Sequence record: PZ379177.1
Source: a phage
Reading direction: 5' to 3' (one strand)
DNA length: 64,000 nt
The notes beneath the pieces were generated by a model. It did no database searches and was not told the origin of the DNA. It worked only from the letters and a program-made list of their open reading frames with translations. This document shows positions 14,752 to 61,246 of the stretch, in pieces; position 1 is the stretch's first letter, and every line of letters starts with the position of its first letter. The position numbers and the translations under genes were made by a program.

Positions 14752-15891
14752 TTAGATACCAGTCATACGGACGACTGCGAAAGGACGCTTGAGCAGAACG
14801 CCTGCTGTTGCGTTTGCGTAGTCTTCAACGTAGCTCTTAGCACGTTTCTCAACGCCCAGAGTCATGAACTTAGTCTGGACCAGCTGACTGAATACTGAAC
14901 CATCATCGCTTGAGCCATCAATTGAGGAATCGATGTGATCAGCGTACAGATATGCCACATTCAGGAAAGTCGGGTCACTGCCAAGTGCGCCGTTGAGTTC
15001 CGGTGCAGATTTGATCTTCATCTTCGGATAAGTCTGGGTGATCCAGTCACGTACAGAAATACCGAAGTCGGTGGTGTTTGACAGCCAATCAATAGAGTTG
15101 GTCGGCAGCGCCAGAGTCATGTCAACCTTCTCTGGATCAATCTGGTCCTGAGAGTTTACACGAATTTGACGAACCATCAAACGGATGTCTGCAGTCACCT
15201 GTTGGAAGGTCGCAGTAGCCCAGCCGGAAGTGGTGTTTGAAGTCATCGCCGCTGGCAGGTTTGGATCATTCAGGAAGCCGAACGTGCGGTTGTTCCCGTT
15301 GTACCAACCATAGAAGCCGATTGCGTTACGCATGATTTCCAGAGATACAGCAGCCTGCTGGCGCTTGGTTTCTGCGGAGTTCAGACGCATCGCAGACGCG
15401 CGACCTTCTTCCAGCATGCCGACTGCCATGCCCATTTCACCGCGAACGATGGAACGGCGTTCAAAGTTTACGTTCCAGCTTGCCAGAGGAATAGCGGTGA
15501 AATCACCATATTCAACTGCGGTGCCAGCTGGTTCAACAATGCCCTGAACGATTTCTGCATCTTCCCACTGGCCAACGGTGTCAATACCAACCAGCTCGTC
15601 AATTTTACGAGCAGCGGTCATGATTTTGACGAAGCCAGGCAGCCACTGTTGCAGGAACTGCAGCGGGGTCGGGATTGATGGCGTGGTCTGCGGCGCAGTA
15701 AATGCGGCGTCACCTACGCGGAAAGCGCCTGCACGGTTTAAGTGCTCAATCTGATCACGCACAATCGCGGAATCAAACACAATACCGATACGCGCAAGCT
15801 GGGAAACAGCCGCGTCGGTCACGGATTGCATATCAAAAGGGCGCACCTTGCTCGCTGGGAGGCGAGAGTGTGTTTGGCTAATGCGAGTCAT
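14752..15891 (-). CDS. Major capsid protein (putative)
   Basis: 379 aa, the usual size, placed after the protease/scaffold-like and decoration-like genes and before the connector genes. No search run. Confidence 0.6.
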
Positions 15892-26619: not shown

Positions 26620-28962
26620 ATGCCAAGGCTAATATTCAAAAACAACTTTGAGGTCGCGCTCGCTCAGCCAACGACGACTTCAAACACCACAATCACAATT
26701 CGCTCAGGGTCGGGCTTTCCGACCTTGGGCGCAAACGAGCGTGTAGTGGCGACAATCGTTGACGCTGCAACAGGCCTCCAATTCGAAATCGTCACAGTAA
26801 CAGCCGTTGTTGGAAACGTCCTGACCGTGCAGCGTGCACAAGAAGGAACTGCAGCGCGTGCATGGGCAGCTGGCGATTTACTTTCCATTCGAACAACTGC
26901 CGCGACTTTGACGGGTACTGTCCGAAACTTTGGAGAGATTCCCTCAGGCATCAACCTTAATGCGCTTACTGGCAGCTGGTTCGGTCAGTATTATCAACCT
27001 TCTAGTGGCGCAGCATCAACTGCGCTTAATTACCCACTCCAATCGTCTGGCGTGCTGGAAGTAATTCAAATTTCAGCAAATGCTTGCTCACAAAAATACA
27101 CTACCACAGTAGGTTTTGAATATAATAGAACATTTGATGGCGCATCATGGTCACCTTGGAAGAGGGTTTATAGCGAACTCGATGTAATCCCAGTCTCCAA
27201 CGGTGGTACAGGTCAAACTACCATCCAAGGAATGAAGTCTGCTTTTGGATTCGGGCAAGTCGCTGATCAGAATATTGTTCCTACTTCGATGGGCGGCACA
27301 GGCTCAGCAGACAACGCTCAAGCATGGCTAAATATTCGTCCACAAGGCTCAACACCGCTTGCTGGCGACCCAGTTAACGACTATGATGCGACAACTAAGC
27401 GTTGGGTTGAGAACTTAGTTAACACAGGCACCGTTGGCCCAAGTATGAACGGCGTCATGAACTATGGTGTTGGTGATTTCCATCTTCGCAATAGTAGATC
27501 ATATATTCAGCAATACGAAGTCGTTGCAGACGGGCAATTACTAAACCGTGCTGACTGGCCTGAACTTTGGGCATATGCACAGATGCTTTCACCCATTGCA
27601 GATGCCGATTGGCTTGCGGATAAGTTCAAACGTGCAAAATATTCTTTAGGCAACGGAACAACGACATTCCGTGTCCCAGACCTTAACGGTGTCCAGACAG
27701 GTTCTGTACGGGCGCTGTATGGGCGCGGCGATGGCGGAAACTCCACTGCGAACGGTCAAATATTCGAATCTGCCGCGCCAAACATCACAGGCTCAGCCGC
27801 AGGTGTATCGGCAGGCACTTATGCGCAAATTTTTGGCACAGCCGTCCGAGGTGCTTTTTACACAAACAATGATTTGTACCCTCAAGGCGCTGGCGACACC
27901 ATACCTGTTGGAAGCGGTGCAGTAGAGGGTCGTCTCAATACAATAAATATTGATGCATCCAGATCAAGCCCGATTTATGGAGCAGCAACTGACGAAATCA
28001 TGGGCCGCAACTTTGTAGGCATTTGGGTTATTCGTGCATCGGGCGGATTTGTTGCCGCGAATACGCAATGGCAAGTTATCAATGCTGATGCTGTTCGCCC
28101 AGGGTCTGGAGTGAAGGCATCTTCTGGACAGGTAAAGGCACAATACAAAATTGGGACGACAGTTGAAGCAGAAGCAGGATTGCGAAGCGATGCATACATG
28201 GATGGTATGTATTACGCAATAATGTCTGTCTACAACAAAACAAAAGGTGTTACAAAGGAATTTGCATTTGGCGATGATGGAATGCTGAATGGTGACAGAT
28301 ACACTGCAAGATATGGCACATTGATGGCTTGGAGTGAGACTGGTACTAGAAGGGGAACATTCTCGATTGAGAACCAGTCACTTGCGGCGAACTATGCATT
28401 CAATAGTCTGCTCAGTGGTGGGCAATCGGTATCAGCAGGATATTATACTTCTACACACTTTGGCATGATTCACAATGACGGTGGAAGCTTTGCTCAATCG
28501 TGCTGGCACGTGGTTGGTGACGAAAACAACGGGTATGGTTGCCGATTGGCGATTCAACCAAACAACGATAACATATTCTTTTATCGTTGGGTGCCTGGTG
28601 ATACCGCTACTTATACACTTGCAAAGAATGCTGTGTCTGATGAAAGGCTTAAATCTGATATCACTGATGTCTCTGTTGATAAGGCTTGGGCGAATATTGC
28701 TGCGCTTAACTTTGTTAATTTCGTCTATAAGTCCGATGAACAGCAAAGGTTGCGGCGCGGCATCATAGCACAGCCTACAGAGTTAATTGAGCCTCTTTAT
28801 GTTAAAACTCGTAAATTTTACGACGACAACAATGTGCAACAAGAGCAAAAGGAGCTTGACACAACTCCAATGCTTCTTGACACGATGCACGTGGTTCAGG
28901 AGTTGATGAAAAAGGTTGAGTCACTAGAGGCAGAGATAGCCGCGCTGAAATCAGCAAAATAA
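26620..28962 (+). CDS. Tail fibre/spike with C-terminal intramolecular chaperone (peptidase S74-like) domain
   Basis: 780 aa. C-terminal motif SDERLKSDITDVS...GIIAQPTELIEPLYV followed by a coiled-coil, as in auto-cleaving fibre chaperone domains. Gly/Thr/Ser-rich shaft. Confidence 0.8.
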   Translation: MPRLIFKNNFEVALAQPTTTSNTTITIRSGSGFPTLGANERVVATIVDAATGLQFEIVTVTAVVGNVLTVQRAQEGTAARAWAAGDLLSIRTTAATLTGTVRNFGEIPSGINLNALTGSWFGQYYQPSSGAASTALNYPLQSSGVLEVIQISANACSQKYTTTVGFEYNRTFDGASWSPWKRVYSELDVIPVSNGGTGQTTIQGMKSAFGFGQVADQNIVPTSMGGTGSADNAQAWLNIRPQGSTPLAGDPVNDYDATTKRWVENLVNTGTVGPSMNGVMNYGVGDFHLRNSRSYIQQYEVVADGQLLNRADWPELWAYAQMLSPIADADWLADKFKRAKYSLGNGTTTFRVPDLNGVQTGSVRALYGRGDGGNSTANGQIFESAAPNITGSAAGVSAGTYAQIFGTAVRGAFYTNNDLYPQGAGDTIPVGSGAVEGRLNTINIDASRSSPIYGAATDEIMGRNFVGIWVIRASGGFVAANTQWQVINADAVRPGSGVKASSGQVKAQYKIGTTVEAEAGLRSDAYMDGMYYAIMSVYNKTKGVTKEFAFGDDGMLNGDRYTARYGTLMAWSETGTRRGTFSIENQSLAANYAFNSLLSGGQSVSAGYYTSTHFGMIHNDGGSFAQSCWHVVGDENNGYGCRLAIQPNNDNIFFYRWVPGDTATYTLAKNAVSDERLKSDITDVSVDKAWANIAALNFVNFVYKSDEQQRLRRGIIAQPTELIEPLYVKTRKFYDDNNVQQEQKELDTTPMLLDTMHVVQELMKKVESLEAEIAALKSAK

Positions 28963-48244: not shown

Positions 48245-48397
48245 TGTTGACGTAAATTTACGAAAAATAAAACTGAAAATCAGTTTAATTAAAGTGGCAT
48301 TGCCGCCATAGTTTTTAGTTGCTACTGGCGGCGACTGAAGGCATAATTAAGTTATCCCAAACGGGGAATATAAAATAAACTAATTTATTTAAGGACT

Positions 48398-49243
48398 GTG
48401 AATATGGCCGAAGCAATCAAAGTATTATCTAAAGAAGAAAAACAAGCAGCCGCAGCAGAACGTCGTCGCGTGGCTGAAGAAAAACGCCTGGCTAAAAAGA
48501 AAGAAGCCGAAGAAAAACGCCAGAAGCGTGAGCAGGAAAAACAAGCCAAGCGTGAAGAAGCTGCGCTGAAACGCAAGCAAGCTGCTGATGAGAAGGCTCA
48601 GAAGCGTGCTGAAGAAGCAGCTAAGAAAGCTAAAGAGCGTGCAGAAAAGGCTGCCGCTAAGAAGGCAGAGCGTGAAGCCGCTAAAGCCGCTAAAGAAATT
48701 GAAAAGGCAAAGGCGAAAGAAGAAGCCAAGCGCCTGAAAGCTGAGCAGGCTGCGGCCAAGAAAGCTGAGCGTGATCAAGCCCGTGCTGCAGCGAAGGCCG
48801 AAAAAGAGAAGGCAAAAGAAGAAGCTAAAGCGAAACGCAAGGCAGAGCGTGAAGCTGCTAAGATTGCGGCGAAAGAAGCTGCAGAACAGCAGAAAGAACA
48901 GCGTAAGAAAGAAGCTGAAGAACGTCGCAAAGCCATCGCAGAACGTAAGGCTGCTAAAAAGGCAAACGGTCAGCGTCGTGCAAAAGCCACTCACTTCATC
49001 TACACTGGCAATGGCCTGAGCCAGCCGCAAGAGCATTCCACCCGTGGACGCGTTCTGGCGGCGATCAAAGAAGGCGAAGTTGGCGTGGCGCAGTCTATCG
49101 ATGAGCTGGGCGAAAAAGTTAAAGATCAACTGTTTGGCGCTTCCGTTCGCTCCTACCTGAGCAAGCTGGAAGAGATGGGCCACATCGAGTTTGTCGATGT
49201 TGAATCCAATGACGATGCCGAAGACGGTGATCAAGCGGAATAA
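48398..49243 (+). CDS. Lys/Ala/Glu-rich charged helical protein with globular C-terminal domain
   Basis: 281 aa; about 190 aa of KAE low-complexity (AEEKRQKREQEKQAKREEAALKRKQAADEKAQKRAEEAAKKAKERAEKAAAKK...) followed by a roughly 80-aa non-repetitive tail. Confidence 0.6.
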   Translation: MNMAEAIKVLSKEEKQAAAAERRRVAEEKRLAKKKEAEEKRQKREQEKQAKREEAALKRKQAADEKAQKRAEEAAKKAKERAEKAAAKKAEREAAKAAKEIEKAKAKEEAKRLKAEQAAAKKAERDQARAAAKAEKEKAKEEAKAKRKAEREAAKIAAKEAAEQQKEQRKKEAEERRKAIAERKAAKKANGQRRAKATHFIYTGNGLSQPQEHSTRGRVLAAIKEGEVGVAQSIDELGEKVKDQLFGASVRSYLSKLEEMGHIEFVDVESNDDAEDGDQAE

Positions 49244-49271: not shown

Positions 49272-49298
49272 GACCCACACTTGTTGTGGGTCTTTTTT
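49272..49298 (+). terminator. Rho-independent terminator
   Basis: Hairpin GACCCACA-CTTGT-TGTGGGTC followed by TTTTTT, directly after the KAE-rich gene. Confidence 0.7.
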
Positions 49299-49377
49299 CG
49301 TCTGTACTAAATAGAAATGACTTGTTGCTGTAAAATAATTTAGCTATTATACTTCTCATATCACCCACAAAGGACAA

Positions 49378-50373
49378 ATGAACATGAAACAACCTGTAAT
49401 GATTATCGGCGGCGGCTTGGCAGGACTTATTACCGCGTGTCACTTCCCGAACTCTATTGTGTACGAAGCAGGGGAGCGAGCGCCACAGCACAAGGCGCTG
49501 CTACGCTTTCGCGGCGAAGAAGTAAGCCGTATTACCGGAATACCTTTTAAGGCCGTGACAGTTGACAAGGCTGTGTATTTTCGCGGTAACTACTACCACG
49601 ACCATTGCCCAATTAACCTTGCAAATATGTATTCCATGAAGGTCACCAATCAGTTTGGCAGCCGTTCAATCATGAAGCTTAAGACTGCAACGCGTTATAT
49701 TGCGCCTGATGACTTTTATGATCAGCTTGTCGACAAACTGGGTGACCGCATATTCTTTAATACTCCGGTTGATACTCTTTGCGGCTATAGCGAGACGCCA
49801 ATCATCAACACGTCGCCGCTGCCAGTAATGATGAAGCTTGCTGGGATTGATCAAAAGCTTGATTTCTCATTTGATAAAGCAAACATTCGCGTTTACCGCT
49901 TTAAGATTAAACGTAAGTGTGATTTGTATCAGACAATTTACTTCCCTGACTACTCCGTCAGAACTTACCGCGCATCAATTACTGGTGACACACTTATCAT
50001 TGAAACCATTCCTTTGGTCAGCGTGAGTGAAGCTGCAGTTGAAGCCGCTGGCGGCATCACTCGTTACCGTGACATGAAGCTGCGCGCAGAAGTCGACGAA
50101 GTGTTGACAGCCTTTGGCCTCTCATGGAGTGACATCGCTCTTGAAGAAGTTGAAAAGGTCGACCAGAAATATGGCAAGATTGTCGACATTCCGAAAGACT
50201 TGCGACACGCCCTACTCCTGCAGCTGACCATGGATTTAAACGTGTTTAGTGTCGGTCGATTTGCTACCTGGCGCAACATTTTGCTTGATGACGTCGCTCA
50301 TGACCTTGTTGAAGTTGAAAAACTCATCAAAGCAAATAACTATCAAAAATTTGCTTATATTGCTAATAAATAA
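49378..50373 (+). CDS. FAD/NAD(P)-binding Rossmann-fold oxidoreductase-like protein
   Basis: 331 aa; N-terminal dinucleotide-binding motif VMIIGGGLAGLITA (GxGxxG). Confidence 0.55.
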   Translation: MNMKQPVMIIGGGLAGLITACHFPNSIVYEAGERAPQHKALLRFRGEEVSRITGIPFKAVTVDKAVYFRGNYYHDHCPINLANMYSMKVTNQFGSRSIMKLKTATRYIAPDDFYDQLVDKLGDRIFFNTPVDTLCGYSETPIINTSPLPVMMKLAGIDQKLDFSFDKANIRVYRFKIKRKCDLYQTIYFPDYSVRTYRASITGDTLIIETIPLVSVSEAAVEAAGGITRYRDMKLRAEVDEVLTAFGLSWSDIALEEVEKVDQKYGKIVDIPKDLRHALLLQLTMDLNVFSVGRFATWRNILLDDVAHDLVEVEKLIKANNYQKFAYIANK

Positions 50374-53459: not shown

Positions 53460-54011
53460 ATGCCACATTTTAAAATTGAACAAATCGCCCTGTCAATTCC
53501 AGGTGCTCAGCGCGCACAGAATTTCCTGGCTAAAATCGGCCTGACAGAATGGTTCCATGATCACGTTGTTGCTACTGGTCGCGTATTTGAAGCTGATGTC
53601 TTTAAGGGTCAGCGCGGCGATTGCACCAACGAAGCTGACTTGCGCTTCAACTATCAGGCTGGCAACGGCACCGATGGCGGCGCTGGTAAGCCTCTTGAGC
53701 TTGAAATTCTTGACTATACAAAAGGTTGCAACTGGATTCACGAAAACATCGAATACATCGATGCGCACGACAATCAGGTTAGCCATCTTGGTATGCACGT
53801 GACTGCCGCTGAACTTGCTGAATGGCGCAAGTTCTTTAAAGAAGAAGGCATTCAGGTTGCGCAGGAAGTCGTAACCGACTCTCACACCAACCCAAATATT
53901 GCTGGTCAGCGTCGTTACAACTATGTGATCTTTGATACGCGTGAGATCATCGGCGTTGATTTGAAGTTTATCGTGCGCTTGAATCAAGACGGTACTCCGT
54001 ACACTGTATAA
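53460..54011 (+). CDS. Hypothetical enzyme, possibly glyoxalase/VOC-like fold
   Basis: 183 aa; His/Glu-containing beta-alpha segments (LELEILDY, SHLGMHV). Assignment weak. Confidence 0.4.
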   Translation: MPHFKIEQIALSIPGAQRAQNFLAKIGLTEWFHDHVVATGRVFEADVFKGQRGDCTNEADLRFNYQAGNGTDGGAGKPLELEILDYTKGCNWIHENIEYIDAHDNQVSHLGMHVTAAELAEWRKFFKEEGIQVAQEVVTDSHTNPNIAGQRRYNYVIFDTREIIGVDLKFIVRLNQDGTPYTV

Positions 54012-60385: not shown

Positions 60386-61246
60386 ATGTCTAAGAAAGAA
60401 ACTACCGAAGTTGCAGTGAAAAACACCCAGATGTCCGCTATGGCTGATTTTGTCGACATGACCGATTTTGGCGCTGGTTTTGAAGGTGCCGATGCCGATG
60501 CATATGCCATTCCTTTTATCGTCGTGCTGCAGAAGATGTCTCCTATGGTCGACGAAGATGATCCAAAACACGTTCCTGGCGCAAAAGCTGGCATGCTTTA
60601 CAACACCGTTACTGGTGAGTTGTATGACGGCAAGAAAGGCGTGCAGATCATTCCTTGCGCATTCAAACGTACCTTCATTCTTTGGGGCGGTCGCGAGTCC
60701 GACGATAAAGGCTTTAAAGGTGAATTTACCAAAGAGCACGTTGATGCAGAAGTAGCGGCAGGCCGCGCTGTTGAGATCAACGGTAAAGTATTTGTGCCGG
60801 ACGAAAACGGCAAGGTGCACGAGAAGAAGTCTCCTTACTACGCAGATACACGTAACCACTTCGTAATTCTGTTGAACGAAGAAACGGGTGAATTTGGTAG
60901 CGCAATGCTGTCTTTGACTTCTTCCATGATCAAGCCGTCTCGCATGCTGATGACCGCTCTGCAGCAGAAGAAAGTTCAGACTCCGCAAGGTCTGAAAACG
61001 CCGCCGACCTTTATGAACATCGTTCGCATGGGTACTGCATCCCAGTCCAAAGACGGCAACACCTGGTCCGTTCTTAAGTTTGAGCTGGAAGGTCTGGTGC
61101 AGGACAAAGGTCTGTACGAAGTCGCCAAGGCATTCCACAACGACGTAGTTGGCGGCAACGTTAACATCGACCGCAGCAAGCAAGAAGAAGCAAGTGGCGC
61201 TGCTGGCCCTGTCAATGAAACTCCGACCGACGCAGAAGAGTTTTAA
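60386..61246 (+). CDS. Putative ssDNA-binding/annealing protein with acidic C-terminal tail
   Basis: 286 aa; ends ...NETPTDAEEF, an acidic tail with terminal Phe as in SSB-type proteins; sits in the replication module. Confidence 0.45.
   Translation: MSKKETTEVAVKNTQMSAMADFVDMTDFGAGFEGADADAYAIPFIVVLQKMSPMVDEDDPKHVPGAKAGMLYNTVTGELYDGKKGVQIIPCAFKRTFILWGGRESDDKGFKGEFTKEHVDAEVAAGRAVEINGKVFVPDENGKVHEKKSPYYADTRNHFVILLNEETGEFGSAMLSLTSSMIKPSRMLMTALQQKKVQTPQGLKTPPTFMNIVRMGTASQSKDGNTWSVLKFELEGLVQDKGLYEVAKAFHNDVVGGNVNIDRSKQEEASGAAGPVNETPTDAEEF

What the first reader, a model, noticed from the sequence alone, without database searches (positions are those of the whole stretch)
48245..49243. Lys/Ala/Glu-rich charged helical protein with its own palindromic upstream region and terminator
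The 281-aa product is about two-thirds K/A/E/R low-complexity and predicted helical, with a small distinct C-terminal domain. Its codon usage looks like a highly expressed gene. Upstream are a perfect 12-bp palindrome CGTAAATTTACG and a second palindrome ACTGAAAATCAGT; a strong terminator follows immediately. It therefore looks like a standalone, highly expressed unit. Candidate roles: nucleoid-associated or histone-like DNA coating, or a TolA-like charged spacer.
Basis: seen in the sequence. Interest (0 to 1): 0.5.

Follow-up and report, generated by a model that had tools for sequence, protein, structure and literature searches.

The report
Abundant rod-plus-winged-helix phage protein, mislabelled TolA
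This is a real, strongly conserved and heavily expressed gene of Wifcevirus/PB1-like phages that encodes a 26-nm charged helical rod ending in a small winged-helix-like domain; it is not TolA, its function is untested, and a DNA-associated architectural role in phage replication is the best guess.

Summary
ATG 48404..49243 (+) encodes a 279-aa protein that is 68% K/A/E/R. Its codon bias ranks 2nd of 80 ORFs, level with the major head protein. An intrinsic terminator follows at 49272-49298.

The window is a Wifcevirus, an E. coli myovirus. The product was detected by mass spectrometry in two relatives. Seven genomes show 50 synonymous-only codons against 2 amino-acid changes.

AlphaFold gives one unbroken helix (residues 10-186), a winged-helix-like domain (197-264) and an acidic tail.

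New here: Lys/Arg recur every 3.67 residues (an 11-residue register) along the whole helix. This makes a straight basic stripe, and it is conserved across the family. E. coli TolA lacks it.

The family (phrog_4765, function unknown) occurs in 357 phage records (Pbunavirus, Wifcevirus and others). In all six genera examined the gene sits directly after the Dda-like helicase, behind a positionally conserved sigma-70-type promoter (48319-48347).

The two palindromes are no more than chance, unique, not conserved, and lie upstream of that promoter.

TolA membership fails: no membrane anchor, no TolA C-domain, no significant similarity.

Best reading: an abundant nucleic-acid-associated architectural protein of the replication module (confidence about 0.4). 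This is inferred, not shown.

The parts
48251..48262 (.). Perfect 12-bp palindrome CGTAAATTTACG, starting 7 nt after the helicase stop codon. Probably incidental.
   Evidence: Present once. The number of such palindromes in the window equals chance (39 vs 38.6 +/- 6.5). Not conserved in other genera.
48266..48290 (.). Imperfect AT-rich inverted repeat AATAAAACTGA-AAA-TCAGTTTAATT.
   Evidence: 11-nt arms, 91% complementary. As RNA it is a weak hairpin: the whole 48245-48295 stretch folds at -7.4 kcal/mol, z = -2.1.
48300..48334 (+). G+C-rich hairpin (GCCGCCAUAG...CUACUGGCGGC) that overlaps the -35 hexamer. It may attenuate or process read-through from the helicase operon.
   Evidence: -19.3 kcal/mol, z = -3.4. 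In Burkholderia phage BCSR52 the equivalent hairpin is followed by TTTT and likewise overlaps the promoter.
48319..48347 (+). Sigma-70-type promoter TTGCTA-17 nt-CATAAT, about 55 nt upstream of the ATG.
   Evidence: Scan hit. The same -35/17-nt spacer/-10 layout aligns in Serratia MTx, Pseudomonas E217, Aeromonas Gekk3-15, Luteibacter Pluto and Burkholderia BCSR52.
48391..48395 (+). Shine-Dalgarno AAGGA, 8 nt before the ATG.
   Evidence: Read directly from the sequence.
48404..49243 (+). CDS of 279 aa plus stop. Member of phrog_4765 (function unknown). Annotated 'hypothetical' or 'TolA protein' in relatives.
   Evidence: Across 7 Wifcevirus genomes, 50 codons vary only synonymously, 2 change the amino acid, and length never varies.
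48431..48961 (+). Residues 10-186: a single uninterrupted alpha-helix (about 26 nm). Lys/Arg sit in an 11-residue (11/3) register, making a straight basic stripe with Glu on the opposite face.
   Evidence: AlphaFold2. K/R periodicity 3.70, z = 9.3 here and 3.65-3.70 (z 5-21) in 14 of 18 homologues tested. Register table. No 33-bp DNA repeat.
48962..48991 (+). Residues 187-196: basic arm NGQRRAKATH carrying the family's most conserved motif, G-x-RR-x-K-A-T-H.
   Evidence: RR is invariant or nearly so. The 15 residues preceding the domain core (181-195) carry net +2 to +7 in all members.
48992..49195 (+). Residues 197-264: winged-helix-like domain (beta-alpha-beta-alpha-alpha-beta). Invariant residues are Q209, S212, R214, R249 and K254; R249 and K254 lie on the third helix.
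49196..49240 (+). Residues 265-279: disordered acidic tail (net -7).
   Evidence: Low pLDDT. Tails are acidic in almost all homologues (0 to -11 over the trimmed alignment; down to -18 in full-length proteins).
49272..49298 (+). Intrinsic terminator GACCCACA-CTTGT-TGTGGGTC followed by TTTTTT.
   Evidence: -15.4 kcal/mol, z = -4.0. Annotated as a terminator in WFC. Equivalent terminators are annotated after the orthologues in LMA2, LBL3 and MTx.

Best explanation
The gene is the Wifcevirus orthologue of an uncharacterised core protein of PB1-like myoviruses (phrog_4765).

Expression: host RNA polymerase transcribes it as a single-gene unit from its own sigma-70-type promoter. Transcription ends at its own intrinsic terminator. 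The protein is made in very large amounts.

Anatomy: the protein is not an enzyme. It is a rod about 26 nm long, formed by one continuous helix. Lys/Arg residues in an 11-residue register form a straight positive stripe, with Glu on the opposite face. The rod is followed by a basic RR-x-KATH arm, a winged-helix-like domain and an acidic tail.

Most likely function: an abundant nucleic-acid-associated architectural protein of the replication module, that is, a phage 'chromatin' or linker-histone-like factor. In this model the basic arm plus winged helix anchor it on DNA. The basic stripe then lies along or bridges DNA, or zips to the acidic face of neighbouring rods. The acidic tail modulates binding or recruits partners such as the adjacent Dda-like helicase.

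Shown: anatomy, expression signals, abundance, conservation and synteny.
Inferred: DNA binding and every mechanistic step.
For: - Expression. The promoter is positionally conserved in six genera and the terminator is strong. Codon bias equals that of the major head protein. Mass spectrometry gave 7 peptides and score 1197.6 (7th of 33 proteins) in vB_Eco4M-7, and the protein was also found in ECML-117 (PMC7048862).
- Constraint. Fifty synonymous-only codons against 2 replacement codons, with no length change, in 7 genomes.
- Basic stripe. The 11/3 K/R stripe is conserved even though the helices cannot be aligned, and no DNA repeat creates it.
- Context. The gene sits directly after the Dda-like helicase in the replication/nucleotide-metabolism module in Wifcevirus, Pbunavirus, Myosmarvirus, Bcepfunavirus, Aeromonas and Luteibacter phages. 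No SSB or histone-like protein is annotated in a carefully annotated Wifcevirus.
Against: - No DNA-binding assay exists, and no sequence family with known function matches.
- The helix carries net +25 only in Wifcevirus. In other genera it is about +5, and occasionally zero or negative.
- A straight stripe does not follow a DNA groove.
Confidence: 0.4

Rival explanations
1. Replisome or recombination adaptor or scaffold. The winged helix and acidic tail bind proteins (for example the Dda-like helicase, the polymerase or host SSB), as RPA32C does. The rod acts as a spacer, or self-assembles through its opposite-charge faces into bundles, sheets or a condensate that organises a replication factory.
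Against: No partner has been identified. The very high expression is more than an adaptor usually needs. The invariant Arg/Lys residues and the RR arm look like a nucleic-acid-binding signature.
Confidence: 0.22
2. Packaged internal virion protein. It is bound to the genome inside the capsid, helping condense DNA, and is ejected with it to act first in the next cell.
For: It was detected in CsCl-purified particles of two Wifcevirus phages with a score above portal, major capsid and sheath. It was absent from DNA-free ghost particles of Pbunavirus SCUT-S1, as expected for a protein that leaves with the DNA.
Against: The same preparations contained other non-structural proteins: a helicase, a 'glyoxalase', and a reductase in ECML-117. 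Two of them match other strongly codon-biased ORFs of the window by size. Carry-over of abundant lysate proteins therefore explains the detection. The gene lies in the replication module behind a host-type promoter. The main texts of the E217 and Pa193 cryo-EM papers do not mention it. The 'structural protein' label in LMA2/LBL3 carries only a similarity note, 'cell wall associated'.
Confidence: 0.12
3. Sequence-specific transcription factor that autoregulates through the upstream palindromes.
For: The fold is winged-helix-like. Inverted repeats of some kind occur upstream of the promoter in most orthologous intergenic regions.
Against: The palindromes are at chance frequency, unique and not conserved in sequence. 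Capsid-level codon bias and a 177-residue rod are atypical for a repressor.
Confidence: 0.06
4. TolA-like envelope-spanning protein, as annotated in several GenBank records.
For: It has a K/A/E-rich long helix like TolA domain II. It is annotated 'TolA protein' in ECML-117, FEC19, vB_Eco4M-7, BcepF1 and MTx.
Against: There is no hydrophobic anchor: the maximum 19-residue Kyte-Doolittle mean is 0.61 against 2.45 in TolA. There is no PF06519 domain. BLASTP gives E = 0.17. TolA domain II lacks the 3.67 K/R periodicity. There is no DNA similarity to any E. coli genome.
Confidence: 0.02

Closest known systems
phrog_4765 / orthologues in PB1-like myoviruses (14-1 ORF66, E217 gp68, LMA2 gp66, BcepF1 and MTx 'TolA protein')
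   Same: Full-length match, E = 2.4e-84. Same architecture, same position after the Dda-like helicase, same promoter and terminator layout.
   Different: The Wifcevirus helix is the most basic (net +25 against about +5). Helix length varies between genera (about 80-190 charged residues). Many homologues have His-rich N-termini, which this one lacks.
Winged-helix (wHTH) domains: Fur/PerR, MecI/BlaI, ArsR, Csa3, ORC2, PriA, RPA32C
   Different: No Pfam, NCBIfam or PDB sequence match. An N-terminal strand (HFIY) completes the sheet in place of a second wing strand. The domain core is not basic.
E. coli TolA (domain II)
   Same: Long K/A/E-rich helical region; this is the source of the database label.
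   Different: No membrane anchor, no TolA C-terminal domain, no significant alignment. Charge periodicity is 5.3/7.25 in TolA against 3.67 here.
Linker histone H1/H5 and other 'winged helix plus Lys/Ala-rich extension' chromatin proteins (comparison from general knowledge)
   Same: A winged-helix globular domain joined to a long Lys/Ala-rich segment, and high abundance.
   Different: No Linker_histone Pfam match. Yeast H1 GII appears only as a non-significant Foldseek hit. The extension here is N-terminal, contains as much Glu as Lys in most homologues, and is an ordered helix rather than a disordered tail.
Charged single alpha-helix (SAH / ER-K) domains and 11/3 (hendecad) helices such as apolipoproteins, alpha-synuclein and LEA3 (from general knowledge)
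   Same: A very long, stable, monomer-predicted charged helix with 11-residue periodicity.
   Different: SAH domains place opposite charges at i/i+4. Here opposite charges are enriched most at i+5 and sit on opposite faces. Classical hendecad helices put hydrophobic residues at the positions occupied here by Lys/Arg.
Phage phi29 p6 and SPO1 TF1, abundant phage histone-like proteins (from general knowledge)
   Same: Very abundant non-enzymatic phage protein linked to replication. p6 also has a basic helix and an acidic tail.
   Different: No sequence or fold relationship was found. Size and architecture differ.

Membership tests
TolA (Tol-Pal system) | N-terminal transmembrane anchor (domain I) | tested here: not met
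   Maximum 19-residue Kyte-Doolittle mean is 0.61 (inside the C-terminal domain), against 2.45 for TolA residues 14-32.
TolA (Tol-Pal system) | TolA C-terminal domain (PF06519) | tested here: not met
   E. coli TolA hits PF06519 at 2e-38. The phage protein has no Pfam hit at E <= 1, and its C-terminus none at E <= 10 apart from DUF6240 below threshold.
TolA (Tol-Pal system) | Sequence similarity of the helical domain beyond composition | tested here: not met
   Composition-adjusted BLASTP E = 0.17. No blastn match in 5,426 E. coli genomes. Different charge periodicity.
phrog_4765 (PB1-like phage family, function unknown) | Full-length profile match | tested here: met
   E = 2.4e-84, residues 1-279 on profile positions 14-271 of 294. 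357 phage records carry the C-terminal domain.
Winged-helix fold | Helix-strand-helix-helix-strand topology with a three-stranded sheet | tested here: met
Winged-helix DNA-binding proteins | Binds DNA through helix 3 and the wing | not testable with these tools
   Only indirect evidence: invariant R249 and K254 on helix 3 and the RR arm, set against a neutral to acidic core.
Linker histone H1/H5 | Linker_histone globular domain (Pfam) | tested here: not met
   No Pfam hit. Only a non-significant Foldseek hit to yeast H1 GII, E = 2.8.
Charged single alpha-helix (SAH/ER-K) | Long helix stabilised by i to i+4 Glu-Lys/Arg pairs | tested here: inconclusive
   A long single helix is predicted. Opposite-charge pairs are enriched at i+3 to i+6, with the maximum at i+5, and the charges are segregated on opposite faces.
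Single-stranded DNA-binding protein (SSB) | OB fold | tested here: not met
   The model contains no OB fold and no SSB family matches. Only the acidic tail and the replication context resemble an SSB.
Anti-phage defence / known defence-associated proteins | Match to a PADLOC model | tested here: not met
   No full-length hit. Only Csa3 wHTH at E = 0.013 on the C-terminal domain.

The most novel reading that the evidence does not exclude
The protein founds an unrecognised class of viral chromatin-like proteins. A winged-helix anchor is joined to a 26-nm helix whose hendecad-phased Lys/Arg stripe coats, aligns or bridges phage DNA, or zips rods together through opposite-charge faces. This would organise the replicating genome in PB1-like and Wifcevirus phages, which include widely used therapeutic Pseudomonas phages.
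Probability: 0.3. Interest if true: 0.7.

Novelty: new variant of a known kind. Interest (0 to 1): 0.45.

Why it matters
- The family is a core gene, expressed at capsid level, of a large phage lineage. [quoted passage not shown]
- Its function is unknown, and records label it wrongly as 'TolA' or 'structural protein'.
- No SSB or histone-like protein is annotated in these genomes. An abundant DNA-associated rod protein would fill a gap in how they organise replication.
- A helix with a conserved 11/3 basic stripe is an unusual design. I know of no description of one, though I ran no dedicated literature search for it.
- If the protein turns out to be a simple accessory factor, the practical gain is still a corrected annotation and a defined promoter/terminator cassette.

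Tried and rejected
- Sequence searches for function. Pfam on the full protein and the C-terminus, NCBIfam, PADLOC and PDB by sequence and by profile gave nothing significant.
- Homology searches. The word-indexed search returned only fragments. The exhaustive HMMER search found 26 representatives, every full-length one with the same architecture, so no informative domain fusion emerged.
- Fold searches. BFVD returned only family members. Foldseek against the PDB was not significant. The afdb50 library was unavailable.
- 'Structural protein' label. In LMA2/LBL3 it carries only a similarity note ('cell wall associated'), not a proteomics reference.
- Virion evidence. Pa193 supplementary MS tables and 14-1 ONT-cappable-seq tables are not held. 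The Ceyssens 2009 paper is not held.
- Palindromes as operators. Rejected on chance frequency, uniqueness and lack of conservation. A similar CGTAAATTTTACG at 28810 lies inside a 780-aa ORF (51, 52).
- Other checks. No Rfam family in or around the gene (95). No 33-bp DNA tandem repeat underlies the hendecads. No host origin: no match in E. coli genomes.
- Antisense ORF. The 269-aa ORF at 48425-49234 is a by-product of the repetitive GCN/GAA/AAG codons. Protein-level conservation and the MS peptides support the + strand.

Full report
**Identity of the window.** The region 48200-49320 matches 29 phage records at 95-99% nucleotide identity, all Wifcevirus myoviruses of E. coli or Shigella (WFC, ECML-117, FEC19, vB_Eco4M-7, BASEL Bas98-101). 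In these records the gene is 'hypothetical protein' or 'TolA protein'. It lies between a Dda-like helicase and a 331-aa hypothetical protein, inside the replication/nucleotide-metabolism module. That module holds primases, ThyX, polynucleotide kinase, a FabG-like reductase, a DnaQ-like exonuclease and a DnaE-like polymerase.

**Check of the observation: the ORF.**
- The ORF runs from GTG 48398 to 49243 (281 aa).
- The annotated and more plausible start is ATG 48404 (279 aa), with AAGGA 8 nt upstream.
- K+A+E+R is 68.5% of the protein and 86% of residues 1-195. The last 84 residues differ in composition and carry net charge -11.

**Codon usage.**
- The claim holds. The fraction of E. coli optimal codons is 0.733, second of 80 ORFs (mean 0.53, sd 0.08). 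It equals the 379-aa ORF at 14752-15891 (0.735), whose length and position match the annotated major head protein.
- All 25 Arg codons are CGT/CGC, and 9 of 10 Leu codons are CTG.
- One caveat: three of the four Ala codons count as optimal in my list, which inflates Fop for an Ala-rich protein. The Arg and Leu figures are independent of that.

**Terminator and palindromes.**
- The terminator is real: an 8-bp G+C-rich stem plus T6, -15.4 kcal/mol, z = -4.0.
- The palindromes exist but carry no weight.
- Perfect palindromes with 6-bp arms number 39 in the window, against 38.6 +/- 6.5 in shuffles.
- CGTAAATTTACG occurs once.
- The second 'palindrome' has 5-bp arms inside an imperfect AT-rich 11+3+11 repeat.

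**The real expression signals.**
- I aligned the helicase-to-gene intergenic regions of six genera: Wifcevirus, Serratia MTx, Pseudomonas E217, Aeromonas Gekk3-15, Luteibacter Pluto and Burkholderia BCSR52.
- The one shared feature is a sigma-70-type promoter with a 17-nt spacer. It reads TTGCTA/CATAAT here (48319-48347), TTGCCT/GATAAT in MTx, TTCCCT/GATAAT in E217, and TTGCCT/TAATAT in both Gekk3-15 and BCSR52.
- A stable hairpin at 48300-48334 (-19.3 kcal/mol) overlaps the -35 hexamer. In BCSR52 the equivalent hairpin is followed by a T-run. The helicase operon's stop signal and this gene's promoter therefore appear to be interleaved.
- Terminators are annotated after the orthologues in LMA2, LBL3 and MTx.
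- The 'standalone unit' reading is therefore supported, and it is ancestral to the lineage.

**Expression and constraint.**
- Mass spectrometry of CsCl-purified vB_Eco4M-7 found the product (vB_Eco4M-7_83) with 7 peptides, 25.8% coverage and score 1197.6. That is seventh of 33 proteins, above the portal, capsid and sheath proteins.
- ECML-117 gp81 was also detected (PMC7048862).
- Trypsin should cut the K/R-rich helix into very short peptides, so the modest coverage is probably an underestimate (my inference).
- Among seven Wifcevirus genomes, 50 codons vary only synonymously, 35 of them in the 'low-complexity' helix. Only two codons change the amino acid (Q162K, D270E). Length is invariant.
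- With 184 synonymous and 653 non-synonymous sites, the replacement-to-silent ratio is about 0.01.
- This is a functional protein whose exact helix sequence matters.

**Family.**
- The protein matches phrog_4765 (function unknown) over its full length, E = 2.4e-84.
- tblastn with the C-terminal 89 aa finds 357 phage records. These comprise 293 Pseudomonas (Pbunavirus: 14-1 ORF66, E217 gp68, LMA2 gp66), plus Serratia, Burkholderia, Xanthomonas, Pantoea, Luteibacter and Aeromonas phages.
- An exhaustive HMMER scan of 1.84 billion representatives finds only 26.
- Every full-length member has the same architecture:
  - a charged K/A/E/R(Q) region of variable length;
  - a G-x-RR-x-K-A-T-H motif;
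  - a roughly 70-residue domain with invariant Q, S-x-R-G and R-x-x-L-x-K-L-E;
  - an acidic tail.
- Synteny (Dda-like helicase, this gene, then a phrog_4828 protein, ThyX and polynucleotide kinase further downstream) is kept in Pbunavirus, Myosmarvirus, Aeromonas and Luteibacter phages. Bcepfunavirus keeps helicase-gene-kinase.

**Structure.**
- AlphaFold2 with the family alignment gives a confident C-terminal domain (core pLDDT >90). Its topology is strand, helix, strand, helix, helix, strand.
- Foldseek against the PDB is not significant, and BFVD returns only family members.
- The assignment is therefore 'winged-helix-like fold', with no close relative.
- A weak PADLOC hit to the wHTH of Csa3 (E = 0.013) points the same way.
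- The full-length model is one unbroken helix from residue 10 to 186. At 1.5 A per residue that is about 26 nm. The domain and a disordered tail follow.

- Lys/Arg recur with a period of 3.70 residues along the helix (z = 9.3 against shuffles).
- The same 3.65-3.70 period appears in 14 of the 18 homologues tested at z 5-21, including E217 gp68, even though the helices cannot be aligned.
- Written in rows of 11, the register holds for 16 rows without a phase slip. Basic residues occupy positions 0, 3, 7 and 10. Glu occupies 2, 5, 8 and 9. Ala fills the flanks.
- On an 11/3 helix this gives a straight basic stripe with an acidic stripe on the far side.
- Opposite charges are enriched most at i+5, not at i+4 as in classical single alpha-helix domains.
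- No 33-bp DNA repeat underlies the pattern, so selection at the protein level maintains it.
- E. coli TolA domain II shows no 3.67 period; its peaks are at 5.3 and 7.25.

**TolA is refuted as a membership claim.** There is no hydrophobic anchor, no PF06519 domain, BLASTP E = 0.17, and no nucleotide match in any complete E. coli genome.

**What it most likely does.**
- Capsid-level expression, no enzymatic domain, a conserved place next to the Dda-like helicase, invariant Arg/Lys/Gln/Ser residues, a basic arm and a basic stripe all point one way. They suggest an abundant nucleic-acid-associated architectural protein of the replication module.
- No SSB or histone-like protein is annotated in a carefully annotated Wifcevirus.
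- I put this reading at about 0.4. DNA binding is inferred, not shown.
- Three points count against it. The winged-helix core is neutral to acidic (net -5 to +1). The helix is strongly basic only in Wifcevirus (+25 against about +5 elsewhere). The fold matches are modest.

**Rivals.**
- Protein-binding adaptor or self-assembling scaffold of the replisome (0.22). This is supported by RPA32C-type hits, the acidic tail and the two-faced charge pattern.
- Genome-bound internal virion protein (0.12). This is supported by the MS detection in CsCl-purified particles and by its absence from DNA-free ghosts of Pbunavirus SCUT-S1. It is weakened because the same preparations contain other non-structural proteins (a helicase, a 'glyoxalase', a reductase). 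By size, two of them correspond to other strongly codon-biased ORFs of the window. The E217 and Pa193 main texts do not mention the protein.
- Autoregulating transcription factor (0.06).
- TolA-like envelope protein (0.02).

**Novelty and verdict.**
- The gene is already deposited many times, but no family or paper I could search characterises it. It is often mislabelled.
- Its parts are known kinds: a winged helix, a long charged helix and an acidic tail.
- The combination, and the conserved hendecad basic stripe, appear undescribed.
- I rate it a new variant of a known kind, with moderate interest (0.45).

Noticed in passing
window 60386-61246 (+): A 286-aa ORF matches Pfam PF23977 'Pam3 phage gp34-like' (E = 4e-86) and phrog_2402 (function unknown). 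It has the third-highest codon bias in the window (Fop 0.708). By size it corresponds to vB_Eco4M-7_70 (31.2 kDa), detected by MS with 12 peptides. It is another very abundant protein of unknown role.
   Followed up: partly
window 53460-54011 (+): A 183-aa ORF has no Pfam or PHROG match but high codon bias (Fop 0.663, all Arg codons CGY). By size (about 20.8 kDa) and gene order it probably corresponds to the 'glyoxalase family protein' vB_Eco4M-7_77 seen by MS.
   Followed up: partly
window 49378-50373 (+): The downstream neighbour (331 aa, phrog_4828, function unknown, no Pfam hit) begins with a GxGxxG-type dinucleotide-binding motif (MIIGGGLAGL). A gene of about the same size follows the finding's gene in Pbunavirus, Myosmarvirus, Aeromonas and Luteibacter phages. 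It has its own promoter-like site at 49312-49339.
   Followed up: partly
window 48300-48334; L011 3023-3049: A stable hairpin overlaps the -35 hexamer of the gene's promoter. In Burkholderia phage BCSR52 the equivalent hairpin is a canonical terminator (10-bp stem plus TTTT) that merges into the -10 element. This suggests a conserved terminator/promoter overlap between the helicase operon and this gene.
   Followed up: partly
homologues P0008, P0014, P0015, P0017, P0019, P0020 (N-termini): Many family members start with His-rich tips (for example MSHTHHHD, MHKHHNHDHN, MNQHAHEKHEHHD). The Wifcevirus and E217 proteins lack these. They may be a metal- or partner-binding tip at the far end of the rod.
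   Followed up: no
window 48425-49234 (-): A 269-aa antisense ORF spans the whole gene. It is rich in F/L/S/C and is a by-product of the repetitive GCN/GAA/AAG codons, not a gene.
   Followed up: yes
whole genome of Bas98 (L008, L012): No single-stranded DNA-binding protein or histone-like protein is annotated anywhere in a carefully annotated Wifcevirus genome, despite a full replication module.
   Followed up: partly
window 28810-28822: CGTAAATTTTACG has the same arms as the 48251 palindrome plus one extra central base. It lies inside a 780-aa ORF (26620-28962) and is consistent with chance.
   Followed up: yes
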